Positions 3,300 to 64,000 of a DNA stretch of 64,000 nucleotides are shown one piece after another. Below the pieces are notes generated by a model. The model ran no database searches and was not told the origin of the DNA. It saw only the letters and a list, made by a program, of their open reading frames with translations. Location: NCBI GenBank assembly GCA_009914755.4, contig CP068257.2:17728001-17792000 (forward strand), given 5' to 3'. The stretch is from the human T2T-CHM13v2.0 reference genome, Homo sapiens. The first letter of the stretch is position 1, and every line of letters begins with the position of its first letter. The translations under genes and the position numbers were made by a program.

Positions 3300-4455
3300 T
3301 ATCTCTTAAATGTAAATCCCAAATCTATACAAAACCTTAAAGAAAACCTACAAAATGCCACTCTAGACATAGATTCTGGGAAAGATTTTGTGATGAAGAT
3401 GCCAAAAGAAATTGCAAACATAAACAAAATTGGGACCTAATTAAACTAACGGACTTCTGCACAGCAAAAGAAACTATCAAGGGAGTAAAAATCCTACAAA
3501 TTAGGGAAAATATTTGCAAACTATGCACCTGATAAAGTCTAATATCCACAAACTATAGGAAACATAAATTAACAAGCAAGAATTAAACATTAAAAATATT
3601 AAAATGCCCATTAAACATAGAAAAGAACATGAACAGACACTTTTCAAAAGAAGACATACAAGTGGCCAACAAGCATATGAAAAAAATTCTCAGTATCACT
3701 AATCATTACATAAATGCAAATCAATACCACAAGGTACCATCTCACACCAGCAGAATGGTTATTATTAAAAACTCAAAAAATAACAGATGCTGGCGTGGCT
3801 GTAGATAAAATGAAATGCTTATTTGCTGTTGGTGGGAAGGTAAGTTAGTTCATTCACGGTGGAAAGCAGTTTGGAGATTTCTCAAAGAAATTAAAAACAG
3901 AACTACCACTTGACTCAGCAAGATAATTACTGGGTATATACCCAAAGTAATATAATTTGTTCTGCCACAAAGACACATGTGCACGTATATTTATTGCAGC
4001 GCTATTCACAATAACGAAGACCTGGAATCAATCTAGATGCCCATCAATGGTGGACTGGATAAAGAAACTGTGGCACATATACACCATGGAATGCTACAGA
4101 GCAATAAAAAGGAACAAAATCATGTTCTTTTCAGCAACATGGATGCAGTTGGAGGTCATTATCCAGAGCAAATTAATGCAGGAAGAGAAAACCAAATACT
4201 GTGTATTCTCCCTTATAAGGGGGAGCTAAACATTGAGTACACATGCACATTAAGAAGGTAACAGTAGACACTGGGCCATACATAAGTGTGGAGGGTGGGA
4301 GGAGGGTGAGGAATGAAAAACTACTATCAGGTACTGTGTTCATTAGCTGGATGATGGAATAATATGAACACCAAACCCCATGACACACAATTTACTAATG
4401 TAACAAACCTGTAACAAACCTGCACATGTACCTCCTGAACCTAAAATAAAAGTTG
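3300..4455 (+). mobile_element. L1 3-prime portion (ORF2 C-terminus plus 3'UTR) of an older primate L1 (L1PB/L1PA-old-like). The 5-prime boundary is approximate.
   Basis: The translation contains L1 ORF2 C-terminal motifs (HFSKEDI..., [29 protein letters not shown]...). The segment ends with the characteristic L1 3'UTR tail 'gtaacaaacctgcacatgtacctcctgaacctaaaataaaagtt'. Track ORFs 3957-4229 and 4037-4261 are translations of this fragment. Confidence 0.8.
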
Positions 4456-4566: not shown

Positions 4567-4890
<324 letters not shown>

Positions 4891-7790: not shown

Positions 7791-7878
7791 AATTATATAG
7801 TAAGTTGCTTAATTTTAATTTTTTTTTTTAGTATACTTAATTAATAAATACAGGAAGAGTTAGAGAAATGCTCTTTGG

Positions 7879-8207
<329 letters not shown>

Positions 8208-8372: not shown

Positions 8373-9891
<1,519 letters not shown>

Positions 9892-10520
9892 TAATGTTCC
9901 TCAAATAAGTCATCTTACCGTGGAGTTATTAACTGGTAATATGCAGAGCCTTTGAGACCCACCCAACCACAAGCCTGGTGCCAATTGTATTAACTAGTAA
10001 GAGAACATCACAAGCAATATTTTAACTATTTTTTCAGGTCCTTGCCCCTATTTTGATTTTGCAGACTTAGATTATGAAGAAGAAGCCAGCAGTCCATGTT
10101 ACTTTGCCATATTGTAAGAAACTATATAAATCATATTTATGGAGCAAATTGTATGCTACATACTGTGGTAAATAATAAGTCAGATATGATTCCTATAAAT
10201 CTGTTGTATTTCCAACTCTTGATGAAACAGTAGGTGACTATGATAACTAGTAAAGAAAGGAGAAGAAATTTCATCTTCAAAATTTCTGTAGGGTATATAA
10301 TCCCTTAAGTAAGTATGACAACAGGTTATAAAAATTTCTAAGTCTTCAATAACCTCAACTACAGAAAGGGATCTTTTCAATCTAAACTATCTAAGAATAT
10401 ATGATATCCATTTCACTACTTCAGTAGTGAAATTATTTACTACAGAATGAGTAATTATGGTTACAAATTTGAAATAATATGTGTTATCAGGGTTTCTATT
10501 TCTACATGGAGCTTATTTAT

Positions 10521-22976: not shown

Positions 22977-23255
22977 TTTTAGAGACAAGCTTTCGCTTTG
23001 TCACTCAGCCAGGAGTGCAGTGGCATTATCACAGTCCACTGCAGCCTCAAACTCCTAGGCTCAAATGATTCTCTCACTTCAGCATCCTGAGTAGCTGGGA
23101 TTACAGGGGTGTGCCACCCTGCCTGGCTAATTTTTTTGTAGCGATGAGGTCTCACTATGTTGCCCAGTCTGGTCTTTAACTCCTGGCTTCAAGCAATCCT
23201 CCTGCCTCAGCCTCCCAAAGTTGTGGGATTATAGGCTTAAGCCACCGTGACTGTT
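22977..23255 (-). mobile_element. Old, diverged Alu (AluJ-like), reverse orientation.
   Basis: ttttagagacaagctttcgctttgtcactcagccaggagtgcagtggcattatcacagtccactgcagcctcaaactcctaggctcaaatgattctc…ctgggattacaggggtgtgccaccctgcctggc…cccaaagttgtgggattataggcttaagccaccgtgactg shows many substitutions relative to young Alu consensus sequences. Confidence 0.8.
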
Positions 23256-26718: not shown

Positions 26719-27084
<366 letters not shown>

Positions 27085-32421: not shown

Positions 32422-32720
32422 GGCCTGCTGCGGTGGCTCATGCCTGTAATCCCAGCACCTTGGGAGGATGAGGCGGGCAGATCACCTGAGGTCGGGAGTT
32501 CGAGACCAGCCTGACCAACATGGAGAAACCCTGTCTCTACTAAAAATACAAAATTAGCTGGGCATGGTGGTGCATGCCTGTAATCCCAGCTACTCAGGAA
32601 GGCTGAGGTAGGAGAATTGCTGGAACCCGGGAGGCGGAGGTTGCGGTGAGTGCAGACCGCACCATTGCACTCCAGCCTGGGCCACAAGAGTGAAACTCTG
32701 TCTCAAAAAAAAAAAAAAAA
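32422..32720 (+). mobile_element. Alu (AluS-like), forward orientation, with an 18-bp target-site duplication.
   Basis: ggcctgctgcggtggctcatgcctgtaatcccagcaccttgggagg… ccgggaggcggaggttgcggtgagtgcagaccgcaccattgcactccagcctgggcc, followed by poly(A). aagaattataccatcttt (32404-32421) matches aagaattataccattttt (32721-32738). Confidence 0.9.
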
Positions 32721-41020: not shown

Positions 41021-41690
<670 letters not shown>

Positions 41691-44027: not shown

Positions 44028-46766
<2,739 letters not shown>

Positions 46767-49936: not shown

Positions 49937-50241
<305 letters not shown>

Positions 50242-51526: not shown

Positions 51527-51696
<170 letters not shown>

Positions 51697-54069: not shown

Positions 54070-57000
54070 AAGGTAAACTTTTCTATTCACCTGACAGTAT
54101 AAGTCTGAGTGAGAAATTATTACCTTTTTTACACTTTAAAAATTTCCTACCTACTATAGAAAAAGGTCTTATCTAGCAATGTGCAAAACAATTATAATCA
54201 AGGGCTGTTTATAAAGGTGATAATACACATCCATACATGTTTATGCTCATAAGTTTGTTACATCATTGATATTGAGACGTGAAATGGACTCTCAGGAGTC
54301 ACAGCTCAGAAACGTCAGAGAACACCGATAAGACAGAATTTCAAAGTATTATAGTCAAAACTAAACTTAACTAAAACTGTAAGTCAGTGAAAACTAAACA
54401 AAACAACCAACCTGAAGGAATAGCAGGGGAAATAAAGAGATCAATGAAAGGTTTCTTTGATGAGATTTATTTCTCTGACTTCACGGAATACTGAGGAAAG
54501 AAACTTTGTGTACAATTATCTTTAAGGACCTTGTATGAAATTCTAAATTTCTTTTAATTGCAAACAAACAAGCAATAGCAATAAAAATAATCTCTTTTTA
54601 TAGTTATAAAATGAATAGCCTGATTGATAAAAGACACTCTTGTCTCTCTACCCTTTTCAATATCTAAAATTAGAGGAAGAGTGGCAGAGATGACGTTATG
54701 GGTTTGTCTCTCAAATGAGAAAATAATCAGAGGCCACATCAACCTAGGACTCTCAGAGACTTTTCATGGTATGGCAGTTTTCAGCCACACATTAACCCAA
54801 CTCCTCTGCCATTTCTATCCTCCCAGTCGGTCTCTGCTCTGTGTGAGACCCCCAGGTATGTGGCATGACCCTTGAAGGGTCCACAAAAAGAAATGAGGTC
54901 TAGATTAATGTCCTTTGTGGAACACAAGGTGTAGAGGTAAAATTTAAGTGGAAAGAGAAAGTAAAATTATATTTTGTGTACAATTGAGTTTGTTGACTAA
55001 TATTCTCCCTCTCACTTTAAATATATACAAACTCAGAATATTGATAACTCATCACAAATATATAAACAGAATTATATCTTTAAAGTTTGCTTCATTTAGT
55101 AAACATTATCAAAATCACTAATGATGTAAAAAGTACATTTAAGTAATATATTAAAGTGTATAGATGTGCCATGTTGTACTCATTTGTACTTTTGTTAGTA
55201 GATATCTTGGTATATATAAACTGTGATCAAAGCTATGATTACTCCCTGAAGAAGCATTTTCAGAAGAACCAATTACTTAGAAAATTTTTAAAGACTCTTG
55301 GGGTATTGCAAAATTGCCCTCCAGAAAATTCATTCCAATTTACAATCACTCTATCAATTTATTAGAGGGTTTTTTGCAATCATTCACTGTTTATTGCAAC
55401 CTCTCACTGGCAGTATCAAATGTGTAGTAAGAAAAACAAGAAATAGTATTGTTATTAATTCCTATTAATTCAGTGAACATGTCTTAACATACATGTTGGT
55501 TATCTGCATTTCTTTGTTTTAAAATTCCTGCTTATAAATGTACTTTATGGCATAAAGTAGGGAATTGATTTGGCCTACCAATATCACAGTAAATTGTGTT
55601 CATTTAGAACATTAGCTTTGTGGTCAGTCTATGCTTCCTAATGTAATGTTGATTAGCTTGGTGACATGGGTTACATTATATATCATTTTTAACCTTCAGT
55701 TTTCACATCTATAAAAATAGAAATAATAATAAATGTATATCTCCTAGTATTGTTTAATCTAAATGATGTAATACCCCCAAAGTAATTAGCATGTCACTAG
55801 TACACTGTTCATGTCGAATAAAGGTAAACTGCTATAATTACAGGAAAGATAGTTGACATATCTGCTAAAGCAAAACTTGAATTCAACACAAGTGTCTCAT
55901 TCTTTCTTTAAAAAAGCCAAAAATACTAAATCAATATTTAAAAAAATAGTATTGATGTGCCAAACTAAAATATGAACAATTTTATTTTAAAATAATCTTA
56001 CAAAATATAATTAAATTAATAAACTAATTCTTTGTCATAAGAAATAAGTGGTTTTCATGATGCAGACCTATTAGATTAAGGAAGAAACTTCAATAAGCAC
56101 ATTATGTTATATCATTGATTTTTTGTTATTATTTTCTCATGCTTGTGGCCTGTTAACTGAGAAAGTGAATAGGCCATTAAAATGTTCTAGGTTTTTAAAA
56201 TATATTTAATAAACATAGAAGGAGAAGTTGCACTTATTAGGCTGTACTTCATGTAATTCACACAGCCACAAAACAAATGGTGAGTATAAAACATGTTCTA
56301 CTGATTGCGGGCAAGACAGCCAAATAAGAAAAGCTCCAGTCTCCAGCTCCCAGCGAGACCAATGCAGAAGGCAGGTGATTTCCACATTTCCAACTAAGGT
56401 ACCCAGTTCATCTCATTAGGACTGGTTAGACAGTGGGTACAGCCCACGGAAGGCAAGCAGAAGCAGGGTGGGGCATCACCTCACCCAGGAGGTACAAGGG
56501 GTCGGGGAACTCCCTCGCCTAGCCAAGGGAAGCTGTGAGGGACTGTGCCATGAGGGATGATGCTATCTGGCCCAGATACTACATTTTTCCCACGGTCTTC
56601 ACAACCACAGAACAGGAGATTCCCTCGGGTGCCTACAACACCAAGGCCCTGGATTTCAAGCACAAAACTGGGCGGCCATTTGGGCAGACACCTAACTCGG
56701 TGTCTGCAAACTGCAGGAGTTTTTGTCATACCTCAGTGGTGCCTGGAACACCAGTGAGACAGAACCATTCACTCCTCTGGAAAGGGGGCTGAAGCCAGGG
56801 AGCCGAGTGGTCTTGCTCAGCAGATCCCACCCCCATGAGGCCCAAAAAGCTAAGATCCACTGGCGTGAAATTCTCGCTGCCAGCACATCAGTCTGAAGTC
56901 AAATTGGGATGCTTGAGCTTGGTGGGAGGAGCGGTGTCCACCAATACTGAGGCTTGCAAACGCAGTTTGCCCCTTACAATGTAAACAAAGCTGCTGGGTG

Positions 57001-57639
57001 GTTCAAACTGGGTGCAGAACCCACCGCAGTGCGGCAAAGCTGCTGTAACCAGACTGCCTCTCTAGATTCCTCCTCTCTGGGCAGGGCATCTCTGAAAAAA
57101 AGGCAGCAGCCCCAGTCAGGGGCTTATAGATAAAACTCCCATGTTTCTGGGACAGAACACCTGGGGGAAGGGCTGGCTGTGGGCACAGCTTCAGCAGACT
57201 TAAATGTTCCCGCCTGTCAGCTCTGAAGAGAGCAGCAGATCTTCCAGCACAGAGCATGAGCTCTCCTAAGGGACAGACTGTCTCCTCAAGTGGGTCCCTG
57301 ACTTCGTAACTCCTGACTGGTAGACATTTAGCAGCAGGGGTTGACAGACACCTCATACAGAAGAACTCTAGCTGGCATCTGGCAGTTGGCCCTCTGGGAT
57401 GAAGCTTCCACAGCAATCTTTGCTGTTGTGTAGCCTCGGCTGGTGATATCCAGGCAAATAAGGCCTGGAGTGGATGTCCAGCAAACTCCAGCAGACCTGC
57501 AGAAGTGGGGCCTGAGTGTTAGAAGGAAAACTAAAAAACAGAAAGCGATATCATCAACATCAACAAAATGGACGCCCACACAAAAACCCCATCTGAAGGT
57601 CACCAATATCGAAGACCAAAGGTAGATAAATCCACAAAC

Positions 57640-58668
57640 ATGAGGAAAAACCAGTGCATAAAGGCTGAAAATTCCAAAAACCAGAACACCTCTTGTTTTC
57701 CAAAGGATCACAACTTGTCACCACCAAGGGAAAAAAATTGGATGGAGAATGAATTTGACAAATTGACAGAGTAGGCTTCAGAAGGTGGTAATAACAAACT
57801 CCTCTGAGCTAAAGGAGCATGTTCTAACCCAATGCAAGAAAGCTAAGAACCTTGATAAAAGGTTACAGAAACTGCAAACTAGAATAATCAGTTTAGAGAA
57901 GAATATATATGACCTGATGGAGCTGAAAAACACAGCACAGCAAGAGAACTTCGTGAAGCATACACAATTATCAATAGCTGAATTGATCAAGTGGAAGAAA
58001 GGATATCAGAGACTGAAGATCAACTTAATGAAATAAAGCATGAAGACAAGAGTAGAGAAGAAAGAATGAAAAGGAACAAACAAAGCCTCCAAGAAATATG
58101 GGACTATGTGAAAAGGCCAAACCTACGTTTGATTGCTGTACCCGAGAGTGACGGGGAGAATGGAACCAAGTTGGAAAACACACTTCAGGATATTATCCAG
58201 GAGAAATTCCTCAGCCTAGCAGGACGGGCCAACATTCAAATTCAGGAAATACAGAGAACACCACAAAGATAATCCTTGAGAAGTGCAACCCCAAGACACA
58301 TAATCATTAGATTCACCAAAGTTGAAATGAAAGAAAAAATGTTAAGGACAGCAAGAGAGAAAGGTCAAGTTACCCACAAAGGGAAGCCCATCAGATTAAC
58401 AGCAGATCTCTCTGTAGAAACTCTACAAGCCAGAAGAGAGTAGGGGCCAATATTCAACCTTCTTAAAGAAAAGAATTTTCAACCCAGAATTTCATACCCA
58501 GCCAAACTAAGCTTCCTAAGTGAAGGAGAAATAGAATCCTTCACAGACAAGCAAATGCTGAGAGATTTTGTCACCACCAGGCCTGCCTTACAAGAGTTCC
58601 TGAAGGAAGCACTAAATATGGAAAGGAAAAACTGGTACTAGGCACTGCGAAAACATACCAAAATGTAA
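57640..58668 (+). pseudogene. L1 ORF1 remnant, disrupted by stops and frameshifts.
   Basis: An ATG sits at ~57640 in the position of the ORF1 start (atgaggaaaaaccagtgcataaag…). ORF1-homologous sequence runs to the stop context …aaaatgtaaagaccattgacac at ~58663-58668. The reading frame is split across several track ORFs. Confidence 0.7.
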
Positions 58669-58735
58669 AGACCATTGACACTATGAATAAACTGTACCAA
58701 CTAATGGGCAAAATAACCAGCTAGCATCATAACAA

Positions 58736-61700
58736 CAAAATCAAATTCACACATAACAATGATAACTTTAAATGTTAACAGGCTAAATGCCCCAATTAAA
58801 AGATACAAACTGGCAAATTGGATAAAGAGTCAAGATCCATTGGTGTGCTGTATTCAGGAGACCCAACTCACATGCAAAGACACACATAGGCTCAAAATAA
58901 AGAGATGAAAGAATATTTACCAAGCACATGGAAAGAAAAAAACAGAGGTTGCAATCCTAGTCTCTGATGAAACAGACCTTAAACCAACAAAGATCAAAGA
59001 AGACAAGGGCATTATAAAATGGTAAAGCAATCCATGAAACAAGAAGAGCTAACTATCTTAAATATATATGCACCCAATATAGGAGCACCCAGATTCATAA
59101 AGCAAGTTCTTAGAGACCTACAAAGACACTTAGACTCCCACACAATGATAGTGGAAGACTTTAACACCACACTGTCCATGTTAGACAGATGAACAAGACA
59201 GAAAATTAACAATGATATTCAGGACTCTTGAACTGAGCTCTGGACCAAGCAGACCTAATAGACATCTAAAGAACTCTCCACCCAAATCAACAGAATATAC
59301 ATTCTTCTCAGCACCACACCACATAGCACTTATTCTAAAATCAACCACATAATTGGAAGCAAAACACTCCTCAGCAAATGCAAAAGAATGGAAATCATAA
59401 CAGACAGTCTCTCAGACCACAGTGCAATCAAATTAGAACTCAGGATTAAGAAACTCACTTAAAACCACACAACCACATGGAAACTGAACAACCTGTTCCT
59501 GAATCATTACTGGGTAAATAACAAAATTAAGGCATAAGTAAATAAGTGCTTTGAAACCAGTGAGAACAAAGATACAACACACCAGAATCTCTGGGACACA
59601 GATAAAGCAGTGTTTAGAGGGAAATTTCTAGTACTAAATGCCCACATGAGAAAGCAGGAAAGATCTAAAATCGACACCTTAACATCACAATTAAAAGAAC
59701 TAGAGAAGCAAGAGTAAAGAAATTCAAAAACTAGCAGAAGACAGTAAATAACTAAAATCAGAGCAGAATTAAAGGAGATAGAGACAGGAAAAACCCTTCA
59801 AAAAATCAATGAATCCAGGAGCTGGTTTTATAAAAAGATTAACAATATAGATAGACTGCTAGCCAGACTAATGAAGAAGAAAAGAAAGAAGAATCAAATG
59901 GACACAATAAAAAATGATAAATAGGATATCACCACTGATTCCACTGAAATACACACTACCATCAGATAATATTATAAACACCTCTACACAAATAAATTAG
60001 AAAATCTAGAAGAAATGGATAAATTCCTGGACACATACACCCTCCCAAGACTAAACCAGCAAGAAGTCGAATTCCTGAATGGACCAATAACAAGTTCTGA
60101 ATTTGAGGCAGTAATTAATAGCCTACCAACCAAAAAAAGCCCAGGACCAGACAGATTCACAGCTGAATTCAATCAGAGTTACAAAGAAGAGCTGATACCA
60201 TTTCTTCTGAAACTGTTCCAAACCGTAGAAGAAGAGGGATTTCTCCCTAATGCATTTTATGAGTCCAGCATCATCCTGATACGGAAAACTGGCTGAGACA
60301 CAACAAAAAAAGAAAATTTCAGGCCAATATCCCTGATGACCTTCGATGCAAAAATCCTCATTAAAATACTGGTAAACCAAATCCAGCAGCACATTAAAAA
60401 GCTTATCCACAACTATCAAGTCGGCTTCATTCCTGGGATGCAAGCCTGGTTCAACATACACAAATCAATAAACATAATCCATCACATAAACAGAACCGAT
60501 GACAAAAACCACAAGATTATCTCAATAGATACAGAAAAGTCTTTGATAAAATTCAACACCCATTCATGCTAAAAGCACTCAATAAACTAGGTATTGATGG
60601 AATGTATCTCAAAATAATATGAACCATTTATGACAAACTCACAGCCAATATCATACTGAATGAGCAAAAACCGGAAGCATTCCCTTTGAAAACCAGCACA
60701 AGACAAGGATGCTGTCTCTCACCACTCCTATTCAACATACTATTGGAAGTTTTGGCCAGGGCAATCAGGCAAGAGAAAGAAATAAAGAGTATTTAATGAA
60801 GCAGAGAGGATGTCAAATTGTTTCTGTTTGCAGATGACATGATTATACATTTAGAAAACCCCATTGTCTCAGCCCAAAATCTCAAGCTGATAAGCAACTT
60901 CAGCAAAGTCCCAGGATACAAAAGAAATGTGCAAAAATCACAAACATCCCTATACACCAATAATAGAAAAACAGAGAGCCAAATCACGAGTGAAATCCCA
61001 TTTACAATTTCTACAGAGAATAAAATACCTAAATATACAACTCACAAGGGATGTGAAGGACCTCTTCAAGAAGAACTACAAACCACTGCTCAAGGATTTA
61101 AGAGAGGAGACAAACAAATGGAAAAACATTCCATGTTCATGGTTTGGAAGAATCAATATTGTGAAAATGGCCATACTGCCCAAAGTAATTTATAGATTTA
61201 ATGCTCTTCTCATCAAGCTACCATTGACTTTCTTCACAGAATTAGAAAAAACTACTTTAAGATTCATATGGAACCAAAAAAGAGCCCATATAACCAAGAC
61301 AATCCTAAGCAAAAAGAACAAAGTTGGAGGCATCATGCCACCTGACTTCAAACTATACCACAAGGCTATGATAACCAAAACAGCATGTTACTGGTACCAA
61401 TTACAGATATATAGACCAATGGAACAGAACAGAGGCCTCAGAAATAACACCACACATCTACAACCATCTGATTTTTGACAAAACTGACATAAACAAGCAA
61501 TGAGGAAAGGATTCCTTATTTAATAAATGGTTGGGAAAACTGGCTAGCCATATGGAGAATACTGAAACTGGACCTCTTCCTTACACCTTATACAAAAATT
61601 AACTCAAGATGGATTAACAACTTAAATGTAAGACCTAAAACCATAAAAACCCTAGAAGAAAACCTAGGCAATACCATTCAGTATATAGGCATGGGCAAGG

Positions 61701-62545
61701 CTTCATGACTAAAACATCAAAAGCATTTGCAACAAAAGCCAAAATTGACAAATGGGATCTAATTAAACGAAAGAGCTTCTGCACAGCAAAAGAAATTATC
61801 AGACTGAACAGGCACCCTACAGAATGGGGGAAAATGTTTGCAATCTATGCACTTGAGAAAGCGATAATATCCAGAATCTACAAGGAACTTAAACAAATTT
61901 ACAAGAAAAAAAGAAACAACCCCATCAAAAAGTGGGCAAAGAATATGAACAGGCACTTCTCAAAAGAAGACATTTATGAGACCAACAAACATATGAAAAA
62001 AAGCTCGTCATCACTGGTCATTAGATAAATGCAAATCAAAACCACAATGAAATACCATCTCACGCCAGTTAGAATGGCTGTCATTAAAAAGTCAGGAAAC
62101 AGCAGATGCTGGAGGGCATGTGGAGAAATATGGATGCTTTTACACTATTGGCGGCAGTGTAAATTAGTTCAACCATTGTGGAAGACAGTGTGGTGATTCC
62201 TCAATAATCTAAAACCAGAAATACCATTTGACCCAGCAATCCCATTACTGGGTATATACCCACGTAGAATAAGTCATTCTACTGTAAAGACACATGCACA
62301 CATATGTTTACTGCAGCACTGTTCACAATAGCAAAGACTTGGAACCAACTGAAATGCCCATCAATGATAGACCGGATAAAGAAAATGTGGCACATATACA
62401 CCATGGAATACTATGCAGCCCTAAAAAAGAATGAGATAATGTCCTTTGCAGGGACATGGATGAAGCTGGAAGCCATCATTCTCAGCACACTAACACAGGA
62501 ACAGAAAACCAAACACCCATGTTCTCATTCATAAGTGGGAGTTGA
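58736..62545 (+). pseudogene. L1 ORF2 (endonuclease/reverse transcriptase) remnant, with multiple frame disruptions.
   Basis: ORF2 homology runs from …aacaacaaaatcaaattcacacataacaatgataactttaaatgttaacagg… through …ttctcattcataagtgggagttga (TGA at 62543-62545). It is fragmented into many short ORFs of under 190 aa. Confidence 0.75.
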
Positions 62546-63067
62546 AAAATGAGAAGACTTGGACACAGGGAGGGTAACATCACACACCAGGGCCTGTCAG
62601 GGGGTGGGGGGCAAGGGGAGGGACAGCATTAGGAGAAATACCTAATGCAGATGATGGGTTGATGAGTACAGCAAACCACCACGGCACATGTATACCTATG
62701 TAACAAACCTGCACATTCTGCACATGTATCCCAGAACTTAAAGTATAATAAAAAATAAATGTTCTACTTTAACTCACATATTGTGTAGATCTTACTTAAG
62801 ATGGTTGGAGGCAGGGTCTCCTGGTGTTGCTTTGGTGATTCAACAATGTCATCAAGGACTCAGGCCTTTCATTCTGCCTTCTGTTACCCTTGGATATTTG
62901 TCCTTCATGATGGTAGTAGGATGACTGCATTTTCAAATCTTTTGTCCTCATGAAATATTAGTGAATGCAGGAAAGAAATGGAAAATATTAAAGAGCTTTC
63001 TTTCTTTCCCTTTAAGTCTCTCTTTTACCACTAAGGATACTGTTTTCCATAATTCCTCCTATTACCC

Positions 63068-63375
63068 TTTTTTTTTTTTTTTTTTTTGAGACGGAGTCTC
63101 GCTCTGTCGCCCAGGCCGGACTGCGGACTGCAGTGGCGCAATCTCAGCTCACTGAAAGCTCCGCTTCCCGGGTTCACGCCATTCTCCTGCCTCAGCCTCC
63201 CGAGTAGCTGGGACTACAGGCGCCCGCCACCGCGCCCGGCTAATTTTTTGTATTTTTAGTAGAGACAGGGTTTCACCTTGTTAGCCAGGATGGTCTCGAT
63301 CTCCTGACCTCATGATCCACCCGCCTCGGCCTCCCAAAGTGCTGGGATTACAGGCGTGAGCCACCGCGCCCGGCC
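63068..63375 (-). mobile_element. AluYb8, reverse orientation, with a 20-nt pure T tail (A-tail on the minus strand) and a 12-bp TSD. This is a very young insertion.
   Basis: The plus strand reads t(20)gagacggagtctcgctctgtcgcccaggccggactgcggactgcagtggcgcaatctcagctcactgaaagctccgcttcccgggttcacgcc…ttgttagccaggatggtc…gtgagccaccgcgcccggcc. This is the reverse complement of Yb8, including the GCAGTCC duplication and CCGGGAAGCGGAG. TSD: cctattaccctt (63056-63067 plus a T) and cctattaccctt (63379-63390). Confidence 0.93.
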
Positions 63376-64000
63376 TACCCTATTACCCTTTCTCTCACAT
63401 TCCCTTGCCAGTACTGGATCACATATCAACCTTTAGTCTAATAAAGGAGAATGAATTTACCATAAGGGACTTAAACTAATCATAACCCATACCCTGGGGC
63501 TATTCACATTGCTGTTTAAACAAAGCTTAGCCCCATAAGAAATGTGGGCAAGACTCTTAGGAAAGCAACCAAATACCTTCAACCAAAATAACTGTCAATA
63601 TTAAACATATGCCCTAATCATACTTCTTTATTCATTTAATTTCCATACAACCCTGTGAAAGAAACCTCAGCTTTATCTCTGGCATTCGTGTAAGTTAATC
63701 AACATGTTCAAAGTCACACAGCTAGAGATTGGTGGAGCTTGAGTTTCAATTCAGTCTGAATATTGAGCTGAAGTTCTAAATTAGGACTCTATTACTTTCC
63801 AACAGTTCGACTTTGAATTCAGACACTTCTAAAGTAACAAGAAAATAGCTCTACAATGAAGCAAAAGTATCTCAATGATAGTTTTTGGAAAATACCTCTT
63901 AAAAAAAATTTTTGCACTGAAAATTTAGCTCTCAAGAAATGTGAAGGGGGCACAGTTGATGTAATTCAGGGAAGACAGCATGAAACACAAAAAAATTAAC

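What the first reader, a model, noticed from the sequence alone, without database searches (positions are those of the whole stretch)
63056..63390. Second AluYb8, in reverse orientation, with a perfect 12-bp TSD and a 20-nt pure tail; two Yb8 copies within 64 kb
This Alu is independent of the one at 7879 because its TSD is different (CCTATTACCCTT) and its orientation is opposite. It also carries the GCAGTCC duplication and the other Yb8 diagnostics. Two Yb8 copies in one 64-kb window suggests a locus that accepts recent retrotransposition well, consistent with its AT-rich, L1-endonuclease-friendly composition. I cannot say whether the density is statistically unusual. It is also a candidate polymorphic insertion.
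Basis: partly seen in the sequence, partly recalled or inferred. Interest (0 to 1): 0.5.

Follow-up and report, generated by a model that had tools for sequence, protein, structure and literature searches.

The report
Ordinary young AluYb8 retrotransposon insertion
This is a routine, full-length copy of AluYb8, a well-known young human "jumping gene" family, with the usual marks of having been pasted in by the LINE-1 machinery; nothing about it or its neighbourhood is unusual.

Summary
The Alu is real and is an AluYb8. The body lies at 63088-63375 on the minus strand. It is 288 bp and matches the Yb8 consensus at 285 of 288 positions. Every Yb8-defining state is present, including the 7-bp GCAGTCC duplication. 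CCTATTACCCTT flanks it perfectly at 63058-63069 and 63379-63390, and occurs nowhere else in the window.

- The 20-nt T run shares 2-3 bases with the target-site duplication (TSD). The tail is therefore 17-18 nt if the TSD is 12-13 bp, not 20 plus 12.
- Three extra bases, TAC (GTA in the Alu sense), sit between the Alu 5' end and the TSD.
- The other copy, at 7878-8165, carries 174 C>G, the published Yb9 diagnostic. The window therefore holds one Yb8 and one Yb9. They share no private mutation, so they do not come from the same immediate source.

Two Yb-lineage copies in 64 kb is not evidence of a hotspot. Given one copy, a second is expected about 5% of the time, and about 59 such windows are expected genome-wide.

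I could not test whether the insertion is polymorphic or present in apes. The published prior for polymorphism is about 20%. Low interest; already known.

The parts
63058..63069 (+). Left copy of the target-site duplication, CCTATTACCCTT. In the Alu sense this is the 3' copy. Its last two T are also the first two T of the T run.
   Evidence: There are exactly two matches in the window against 0.02 expected. Sequence read.
63068..63087 (-). Poly(A) tail of the Alu, seen as a pure T run of 20 on the + strand. It leaves 17-18 nt once the bases shared with a 12-13 bp TSD are removed.
   Evidence: Homopolymer scan; sequence.
63088..63242 (-). Right Alu monomer (Alu positions 134-288). It contains the Yb8 7-bp duplication at 63118-63131. 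It also holds two private substitutions: 63155 (Alu position 221, G>T) and 63146 (position 230, C>T, at a CpG).
   Evidence: A sub-threshold Metazoa_SRP match covers 63086-63240 (-), E = 1e-13.
63243..63257 (-). A-rich linker between the two monomers (AAAAATACAAAAAAT in the Alu sense).
   Evidence: Alignment to the Yb8 consensus.
63258..63375 (-). Left Alu monomer (Alu positions 1-118). The Pol III A box (63353-63363) and B box (63292-63301) are both identical to the consensus. One private CpG substitution lies at 63267 (position 109, C>T).
   Evidence: A sub-threshold Metazoa_SRP match covers 63260-63374 (-), E = 1.7e-13.
63376..63378 (-). Three extra bases (TAC on +, GTA in the Alu sense) between the Alu 5' end and the TSD. 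They belong to neither the Alu consensus nor the duplicated target.
   Evidence: The same junction, with the filler, is present in an independent metagenome contig, L001.
63379..63390 (+). Right copy of the target-site duplication, CCTATTACCCTT. In the Alu sense this is the 5' copy.

Best explanation
This is a full-length AluYb8 SINE, a non-autonomous retrotransposon derived from 7SL RNA.

Inferred mechanism (from the family and the hallmarks here): a Pol III transcript of a Yb8 source element was inserted by LINE-1 ORF2p through target-primed reverse transcription. The + strand was nicked next to the short T stretch of ...ACCCTT(T)/CTCTC. The T-rich 3' end primed on the Alu poly(A) tail. The staggered second nick produced the 10-13 bp target-site duplication.

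Shown by the sequence: the insertion added 321 bp (63070-63390). That is 18 nt of tail, 288 bp of body, a 3-nt filler and 12 bp of TSD. It landed in AT-rich, repeat-rich DNA about 310 bp downstream of the 3' end of an L1 element. Since insertion it has acquired three substitutions, two of them CpG transitions.

Reading: it is most likely a human-lineage insertion a few million years old. It is now a passive passenger rather than an active source copy.
For: Subfamily:
- It matches the Yb8 consensus at 285/288. The Yb8 state is present at every position where Yb8 differs from AluY: 57T, 64T, 98A, 144C, 211A, 236T, 255G, 259G and the 7-bp duplication.
- I checked my recalled consensus against eight published Yb sequences. 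They differ from it only at their own subfamily markers and at scattered single-sequence assembly differences.
- It lacks the markers of Yb9 (174G), Yb8a1 (259A), Yb8b1 (260A) and Yb11 (T inserted after 200).

Family anatomy:
- Two sub-threshold Metazoa_SRP matches cover the two monomers.
- The A and B boxes are intact.

Insertion hallmarks:
- The flanking repeat is perfect and found nowhere else in the window.
- The tail is pure.
- The TSD length is within the published ranges of 5-27 bp (mean 14) and 7-22 bp.
- Only 22.5% of sequenced young Alus have an exact TTTT/AA site, so the imperfect site here is normal.

Age:
- Three substitutions give about 3.8 Myr, with a 95% interval of 0.8-11 Myr. 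This uses 0.15%/Myr for non-CpG sites and an assumed 6-fold higher rate for CpG sites.

Passive status:
- The first TTTT terminator lies 82 nt beyond the A run and the tail is no more than 20 nt. Published criteria for source candidates are a terminator within about 15 bp and a tail longer than 20 bp.
Against: - Nothing contradicts the Yb8/TPRT reading.
- The nick site is not the canonical TTTT/AA. It reads CTTT/CT, or CCTT/TC, depending on how the shared T are assigned.
- The 3-nt filler at the 5' junction is not a standard hallmark, and I did not explain it.
- Human specificity and fixation status are inferred from what is published about the family, not from this locus.
- The age interval is very wide, because it rests on three substitutions.
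Confidence: 0.95

Rival explanations
1. The insertion is still polymorphic (present or absent) in human populations. This refines the main reading rather than competing with it.
For: About 19-20% of reference Yb elements are known to be polymorphic: 499 of 2,433, and 460 known polymorphic against 1,929 not known to be polymorphic. This copy's 1.0% divergence is within the range of validated polymorphic Yb8 insertions, of which 75 of 76 are <=2% diverged. The TSD is perfect and the tail pure.
Against: Three substitutions and a tail of 18-20 nt are more typical of the older, fixed bulk of the family; polymorphic insertions average a tail of about 29 nt. The only other sequence I found for this locus also carries the filled junction (L001). 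I found no empty allele, but the searchable collections hardly cover human DNA.
Confidence: 0.18
2. The two Yb-lineage copies mark a local hotspot for recent retrotransposition, or they come from the same source element.
For: There are two young Yb-lineage elements 54.9 kb apart in a window of 34.6% GC. For a randomly chosen 64-kb window, P(>=2) is about 1.2e-3.
Against: Given one copy, a second in the same window has a probability of about 4.9%. About 59 such windows, and about 200 Yb elements with a Yb neighbour within 55 kb, are expected by chance. Those figures assume uniform placement; the known AT-rich bias of young Alus would raise them. The copies belong to different sub-lineages (Yb8 and Yb9), differ at 7 positions and share no private mutation.
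Confidence: 0.05
3. This copy is itself an active source (driver) element.
For: It is full length, the A and B boxes are intact and the tail is uninterrupted.
Against: The tail is no more than 20 nt, and the first Pol III terminator is 82 nt downstream of the tail. Published criteria are a tail >20 nt and a terminator within about 15 bp. None of its three private substitutions (109T, 221T, 230T) is a described sub-subfamily marker in the two papers I read.
Confidence: 0.04
4. An older AluY was converted to a Yb8 sequence by gene conversion, rather than inserted as a Yb8.
For: Gene conversion between Alu copies is mentioned as a source of misclassification.
Against: The Yb8 states are present along the whole element, from position 57 to 259. 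A perfect TSD, a pure tail and only 3 substitutions all argue for a young element rather than an old one that was patched.
Confidence: 0.02

Closest known systems
AluYb8 subfamily (Yb lineage of AluY; about 2,400 full-length Yb copies in the human reference)
   Same: It shares all Yb8-defining substitutions and the 7-bp duplication, is full length at 288 bp, and has a poly(A) tail and TSD. Its divergence of 1.0% is typical of the family.
   Different: It has three private substitutions (109 C>T, 221 G>T, 230 C>T) and a 3-nt GTA leader between the TSD and the Alu 5' end.
AluYb9
   Same: The backbone is identical. The neighbouring element at 7878-8165 belongs to this sub-lineage.
   Different: The element under study has C, not G, at position 174, so it is not Yb9.
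AluYb8a1 / Yb8b1 / Yb10 / Yb11 (recent Yb sub-subfamilies)
   Same: All share the Yb8 backbone.
   Different: This copy lacks 259 G>A, 260 G>A and the T insertion after position 200.
7SL (SRP) RNA, the ancestor of Alu monomers
   Same: Each monomer gives a Metazoa_SRP match covering the Alu-domain ends of the model (E about 1e-13).
   Different: The scores (56.6 and 55.8 bits) are below the Rfam gathering score of 70. The S domain is missing, as expected for an Alu.

Membership tests
Alu SINE | Dimer of two 7SL-derived monomers joined by an A-rich linker | tested here: met
   Two Metazoa_SRP matches at 63260-63374 and 63086-63240 (-). The linker AAAAATACAAAAAAT aligns to the consensus.
Alu SINE | Internal Pol III A and B boxes in the left monomer | tested here: met
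   TGGCTCACGCC at Alu position 13 and GATCGAGACC at position 75, both identical to the consensus.
Alu SINE | 3' poly(A) tail and flanking target-site duplication (LINE-1 mediated TPRT) | tested here: met
   Pure 20-nt T run on the + strand. Perfect 12-bp repeat found only at the two ends, against 0.02 expected.
Alu SINE | Insertion at an L1 endonuclease-type site (5'-TTTT/AA-3' or a variant) | tested here: inconclusive
   The site reads CTTT/CT or CCTT/TC, depending on how the shared T are assigned. It is T-rich on the priming side but lacks A after the nick. Only 22.5% of young Alus match the consensus exactly.
AluYb8 | Tandem duplication of 7 nt (GCAGTCC) near the 3' end | tested here: met
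   Exact match of GCAGTCCGCAGTCCGGCCTGGG at 63110-63131 (-).
AluYb8 | The substitutions that separate Yb8 from AluY (57, 64, 98, 144, 211, 236 and the C>G transversion; also G at 259) | tested here: met
   All are in the Yb8 state. I checked the consensus against published Yb sequences. My recalled AluY was wrong at positions 89 and 96, and I corrected it.
AluYb8 | Human-lineage origin (absent at the orthologous site in other apes) | not testable with these tools
   No ape genome is reachable. Scans of the metagenome, prokaryote-genome and viral collections gave only one human-contaminant contig, which carries the filled site.
AluYb9 | C>G at position 174 | tested here: not met
   The element at 63088-63375 has C at 174. 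The element at 7878-8165 has G. The diagnostic is defined.
AluYb8a1 / Yb10 / Yb11 | G>A at position 259, with 174G added for Yb10 and T inserted after 200 as well for Yb11 | tested here: not met
   Position 259 is G and there is no T insertion. The markers are defined, with sequences.

The most novel reading that the evidence does not exclude
The two independent young Yb-lineage insertions 55 kb apart might reflect a genuine local susceptibility to recent L1-mediated insertion, rather than chance plus the general AT-rich bias. Alternatively, the GTA leader might mark a particular source gene whose Pol III transcripts start 3 nt upstream, which would make that source traceable.
Probability: 0.05. 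Interest if true: 0.3.

Novelty: already known. Interest (0 to 1): 0.07.

Why it matters
It matters little. AluYb8 is one of the best-described active human retrotransposon families, and this copy shows the standard anatomy. If it proved polymorphic, it would be one more presence/absence marker among thousands. The useful results are corrections. The neighbouring copy is a Yb9 and not a second Yb8. The tail and TSD lengths overlap. And the apparent clustering is within chance.

Tried and rejected
Searching for an empty allele or an orthologue:
- I scanned metagenome contigs for the right flank. The one hit, L001 (OJLO01013067.1), is a chimeric contig of human contaminant reads. It matches window 63350-63725 at 100% and carries the filled 5' junction with the TAC filler. 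It shows that the filler is not an error of this window. It says nothing about allele frequency.
- Scans of genome contigs for either flank found nothing, and a scan of viral contigs for the left flank also found nothing.
- Exact look-ups of three flank ORFs in the assembly collection found nothing on record.
- I reconstructed the ORF that would cross the empty site (65 aa) and searched the 5.8-billion-protein collection. It had no hit. Non-coding human ORFs are evidently not in that collection.

Naming the locus:
- No Rfam family reached its gathering score in the 64 kb.
- The ORFs of 75 aa or more are L1 or Alu derived, or not protein-like.
- I ran no further search on this. Without genome coordinates, the published locus lists cannot be used.

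Literature:
- Carter et al. 2004 (the locus-by-locus Yb screen) and Han et al. 2005 are not held.

Errors and ideas rejected:
- My recalled AluY consensus carried the Ya5 states at positions 89 and 96. I corrected it, and the conclusion is unchanged.
- I considered whether element 1's 268 G>A was the Yb8a1/Yb10 marker. It is not. The published sequences show that marker is GTCCGGCC>GTCCAGCC at position 259.

Full report
**What is at the coordinates.** The window is AT-rich (34.6% GC) and reads like human DNA. Between 63058 and 63390 the + strand carries five parts in order:
- CCTATTACCCTT;
- a T run;
- the reverse complement of an Alu, from ...GAGACGGAGTC to ...CGCCCGGCC;
- three bases, TAC;
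- CCTATTACCCTT again.

BLAST against four Alu consensus sequences puts the body at 63088-63375 on the minus strand. It is full length at 288 bp.

**Subfamily.**
- The body matches the AluYb8 consensus at 285 of 288 positions. It matches AluY at 270/288, AluYa5 at 265/288 and AluSx at 262/290.
- Every position at which Yb8 differs from AluY is in the Yb8 state: 57T, 64T, 98A, 144C, 211A, 236T, the C>G transversion at 255, G at 259, and the 7-bp GCAGTCC duplication.
- The duplication with its context, GCAGTCCGCAGTCCGGCCTGGG, is found only twice in the window, once in each Yb element. None is expected by chance.
- I wrote the consensus sequences from memory, so I checked them. Eight published Yb8a1/Yb11 sequences (Ahmed et al. 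2013, Table S2) agree with my Yb8 consensus. The exceptions are their own markers (174, the T after 200, and 259) and scattered single-sequence assembly differences.
- My AluY consensus was wrong at positions 89 and 96, where I had written the Ya5 states. I corrected it from Konkel et al. 2015 and reran the comparison. The conclusion did not change.
- The element lacks the markers of Yb9 (174 C>G), Yb8a1 (259 G>A), Yb8b1 (260 G>A) and Yb11 (T inserted after 200). It is a plain Yb8.
- Independently of any recalled sequence, Rfam gives two sub-threshold Metazoa_SRP matches on the minus strand, one per monomer (E about 1e-13; 56.6 and 55.8 bits against a gathering score of 70). This is the expected signature of a dimeric 7SL-derived SINE.

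**Insertion hallmarks, and two corrections.**
- CCTATTACCCTT occurs exactly twice in the 64 kb, at the two ends of this Alu, against 0.02 expected. The duplication is real.
- The T run at 63068-63087 is pure and 20 nt long. Its first two T are the last two bases of the 12-bp repeat, and the right-hand copy is followed by a third T. The honest description runs from a 10-bp TSD with a 20-nt tail to a 13-bp TSD with a 17-nt tail.
- The right-hand repeat does not touch the Alu. The same junction, filler included, appears in an unrelated metagenome contig that contains human contaminant reads (L001), so it is not an error peculiar to this window.
- I did not explain the filler. From general knowledge of non-LTR retrotransposition, it could be non-templated addition at the end of the cDNA, or a source transcript that began 3 nt upstream. 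Neither was tested.
- The inferred nick site on the + strand is CTTT/CT or CCTT/TC. It is T-rich on the priming side but lacks the consensus A after the nick. This is unremarkable, because only 22.5% of 322 sequenced young Alus have an exact TTTT/AA site.
- The TSD length is inside the published ranges of 5-27 bp, mean 14, and 7-22 bp.

**Age and activity.**
- The three differences from the consensus are 109 C>T (63267) and 230 C>T (63146), both at CpG sites, and 221 G>T (63155).
- I used the 0.15%/Myr non-CpG rate from the Alu literature and an assumed six-fold higher CpG rate. The point estimate is 3.8 Myr, with a 95% Poisson interval of 0.8-11 Myr. This is compatible with the bulk of the Yb family, stated to have inserted 3-4 Myr ago. 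It is too imprecise to date this copy.
- The A and B boxes are intact. However, the tail is no more than 20 nt and the first TTTT terminator is 82 nt beyond the tail. Published criteria for likely source elements are a tail longer than 20 nt and a terminator within about 15 bp. I therefore read the copy as a passive passenger.
- None of its three private changes is a described sub-subfamily marker in the papers I read.

**The other copy, and 'two Yb8 in 64 kb'.**
- The element at 7878-8165 (+) matches Yb8 at 284/288. Its differences are 110 G>A, 174 C>G, 268 G>A and 281 T>G.
- Position 174 C>G is the ninth diagnostic mutation, the one that defines Yb9. The published Yb11 sequences, which carry the Yb9 mutation, show the same CTACTGGGGAGG. 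That copy is therefore a Yb9.
- It is not Yb10, because position 259 is G.
- The two copies differ at 7 positions and share no private mutation. They have different TSDs and opposite orientations.

**Is the density unusual?** The reference holds about 2,433 full-length Yb elements. In a genome of 3.1 Gb that gives 0.050 per 64 kb. From this:
- the chance that a random window holds two or more is 1.2e-3;
- about 59 such windows are expected genome-wide;
- given one Yb element, the chance of a second in the same window is about 4.9%;
- about 200 Yb elements are expected to have a Yb neighbour within 55 kb.

These figures assume uniform placement. The known preference of young Alus for AT-rich DNA (general knowledge) makes close pairs in a 35% GC region more likely still. 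There is no basis for calling this a hotspot.

**Polymorphism and species distribution: not tested.**
- The indirect routes failed. Flank scans of the prokaryote-genome and viral collections found nothing. Exact look-ups of three flank ORFs found nothing. A protein search with the 65-aa ORF that would span the reconstructed empty site found nothing.
- What can be said is the family prior. About 19-20% of reference Yb8/9 copies are known to be polymorphic: 499 of 2,433, and 460 known against 1,929 not known. The young Alu subfamilies, Yb among them, are described as almost entirely human-specific.
- This copy's 1.0% divergence is compatible with either status. Its short tail and three substitutions lean slightly towards the older, fixed majority.

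**Surroundings.**
- An L1 on the + strand, with broken ORF1/ORF2 reading frames, runs from roughly 57000 to its A-rich 3' end near 62757. The Alu landed about 310 bp beyond it.
- The right flank contains a MIR-like core (...GTCACACAGCTAG...) around 63700-63725. At that point the L001 contig switches to another locus.
- The window holds about ten other Alus. All are older AluS or AluY copies, 71-94% identical to their best consensus.

**Verdict.** The parts of the interpretation that would have made it interesting (a receptive locus, a shared source, a likely polymorphism) are contradicted, within chance, or untested.

Noticed in passing
window 7878-8165 (+), A run 8166-8205: The 'first Yb8' carries 174 C>G, the Yb9 diagnostic, so by diagnostic positions it is an AluYb9. 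It has a pure 40-nt A run, a 14-15 bp TSD (AGAAATGCTCTTTG[G]) and a TTTT 23 nt beyond the A run. It looks younger than the copy at 63088 and is the likelier of the two to be polymorphic. Its 268 G>A is not the Yb8a1/Yb10 marker, which is at position 259.
   Followed up: partly
window 63376-63378: A three-base filler (TAC on +, GTA in the Alu sense) lies between the Alu 5' end and the TSD. The local sequence reads TAGG-G-TAGG across the junction. Its origin is unexplained: non-templated addition, an upstream transcription start in the source, or a small slip.
   Followed up: partly
L001 (OJLO01013067.1) 1-1053: This metagenome contig is a chimera of human contaminant reads. It has a Nextera adapter at its start (AGATGTGTATAAGAGACAG). 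An unrelated segment is joined at the last 26 bp of an Alu. Window 63350-63725 follows at 100% identity, and then the contig switches to another locus inside a MIR-like core.
   Followed up: yes
window ~57000-62757 (+): A near full-length L1 with disrupted ORF1 and ORF2 reading frames ends in an A-rich 3' end near 62757, about 310 bp upstream of the Alu insertion site. Further L1 ORF2 fragments lie at 3957-4229 (+), 8588-9190 (-) and 9331-9894 (+).
   Followed up: no
window 63191-63242 (-) and 63108-63174 (+): There are sub-threshold Rfam matches to mir-1268 (69.1 bits against a gathering score of 83) and mir-3135 (34.2 against 80) inside the Alu right monomer. I read these as Alu-derived miRNA families matching Alu sequence, not as evidence of a miRNA gene here.
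   Followed up: no
window 4611-4890, 22993-23247, 26727-26996, 32422-32704, 41112-41399, 44836-45117, 49971-50241, 51547-51694: These are the other Alu copies in the window. All are older: AluS-like at 76-88% identity, and AluY-like at 91-94% (44836-45117 and 49971-50241). About ten Alus in 64 kb is a low Alu density, in keeping with the AT-rich, L1-rich setting.
   Followed up: no
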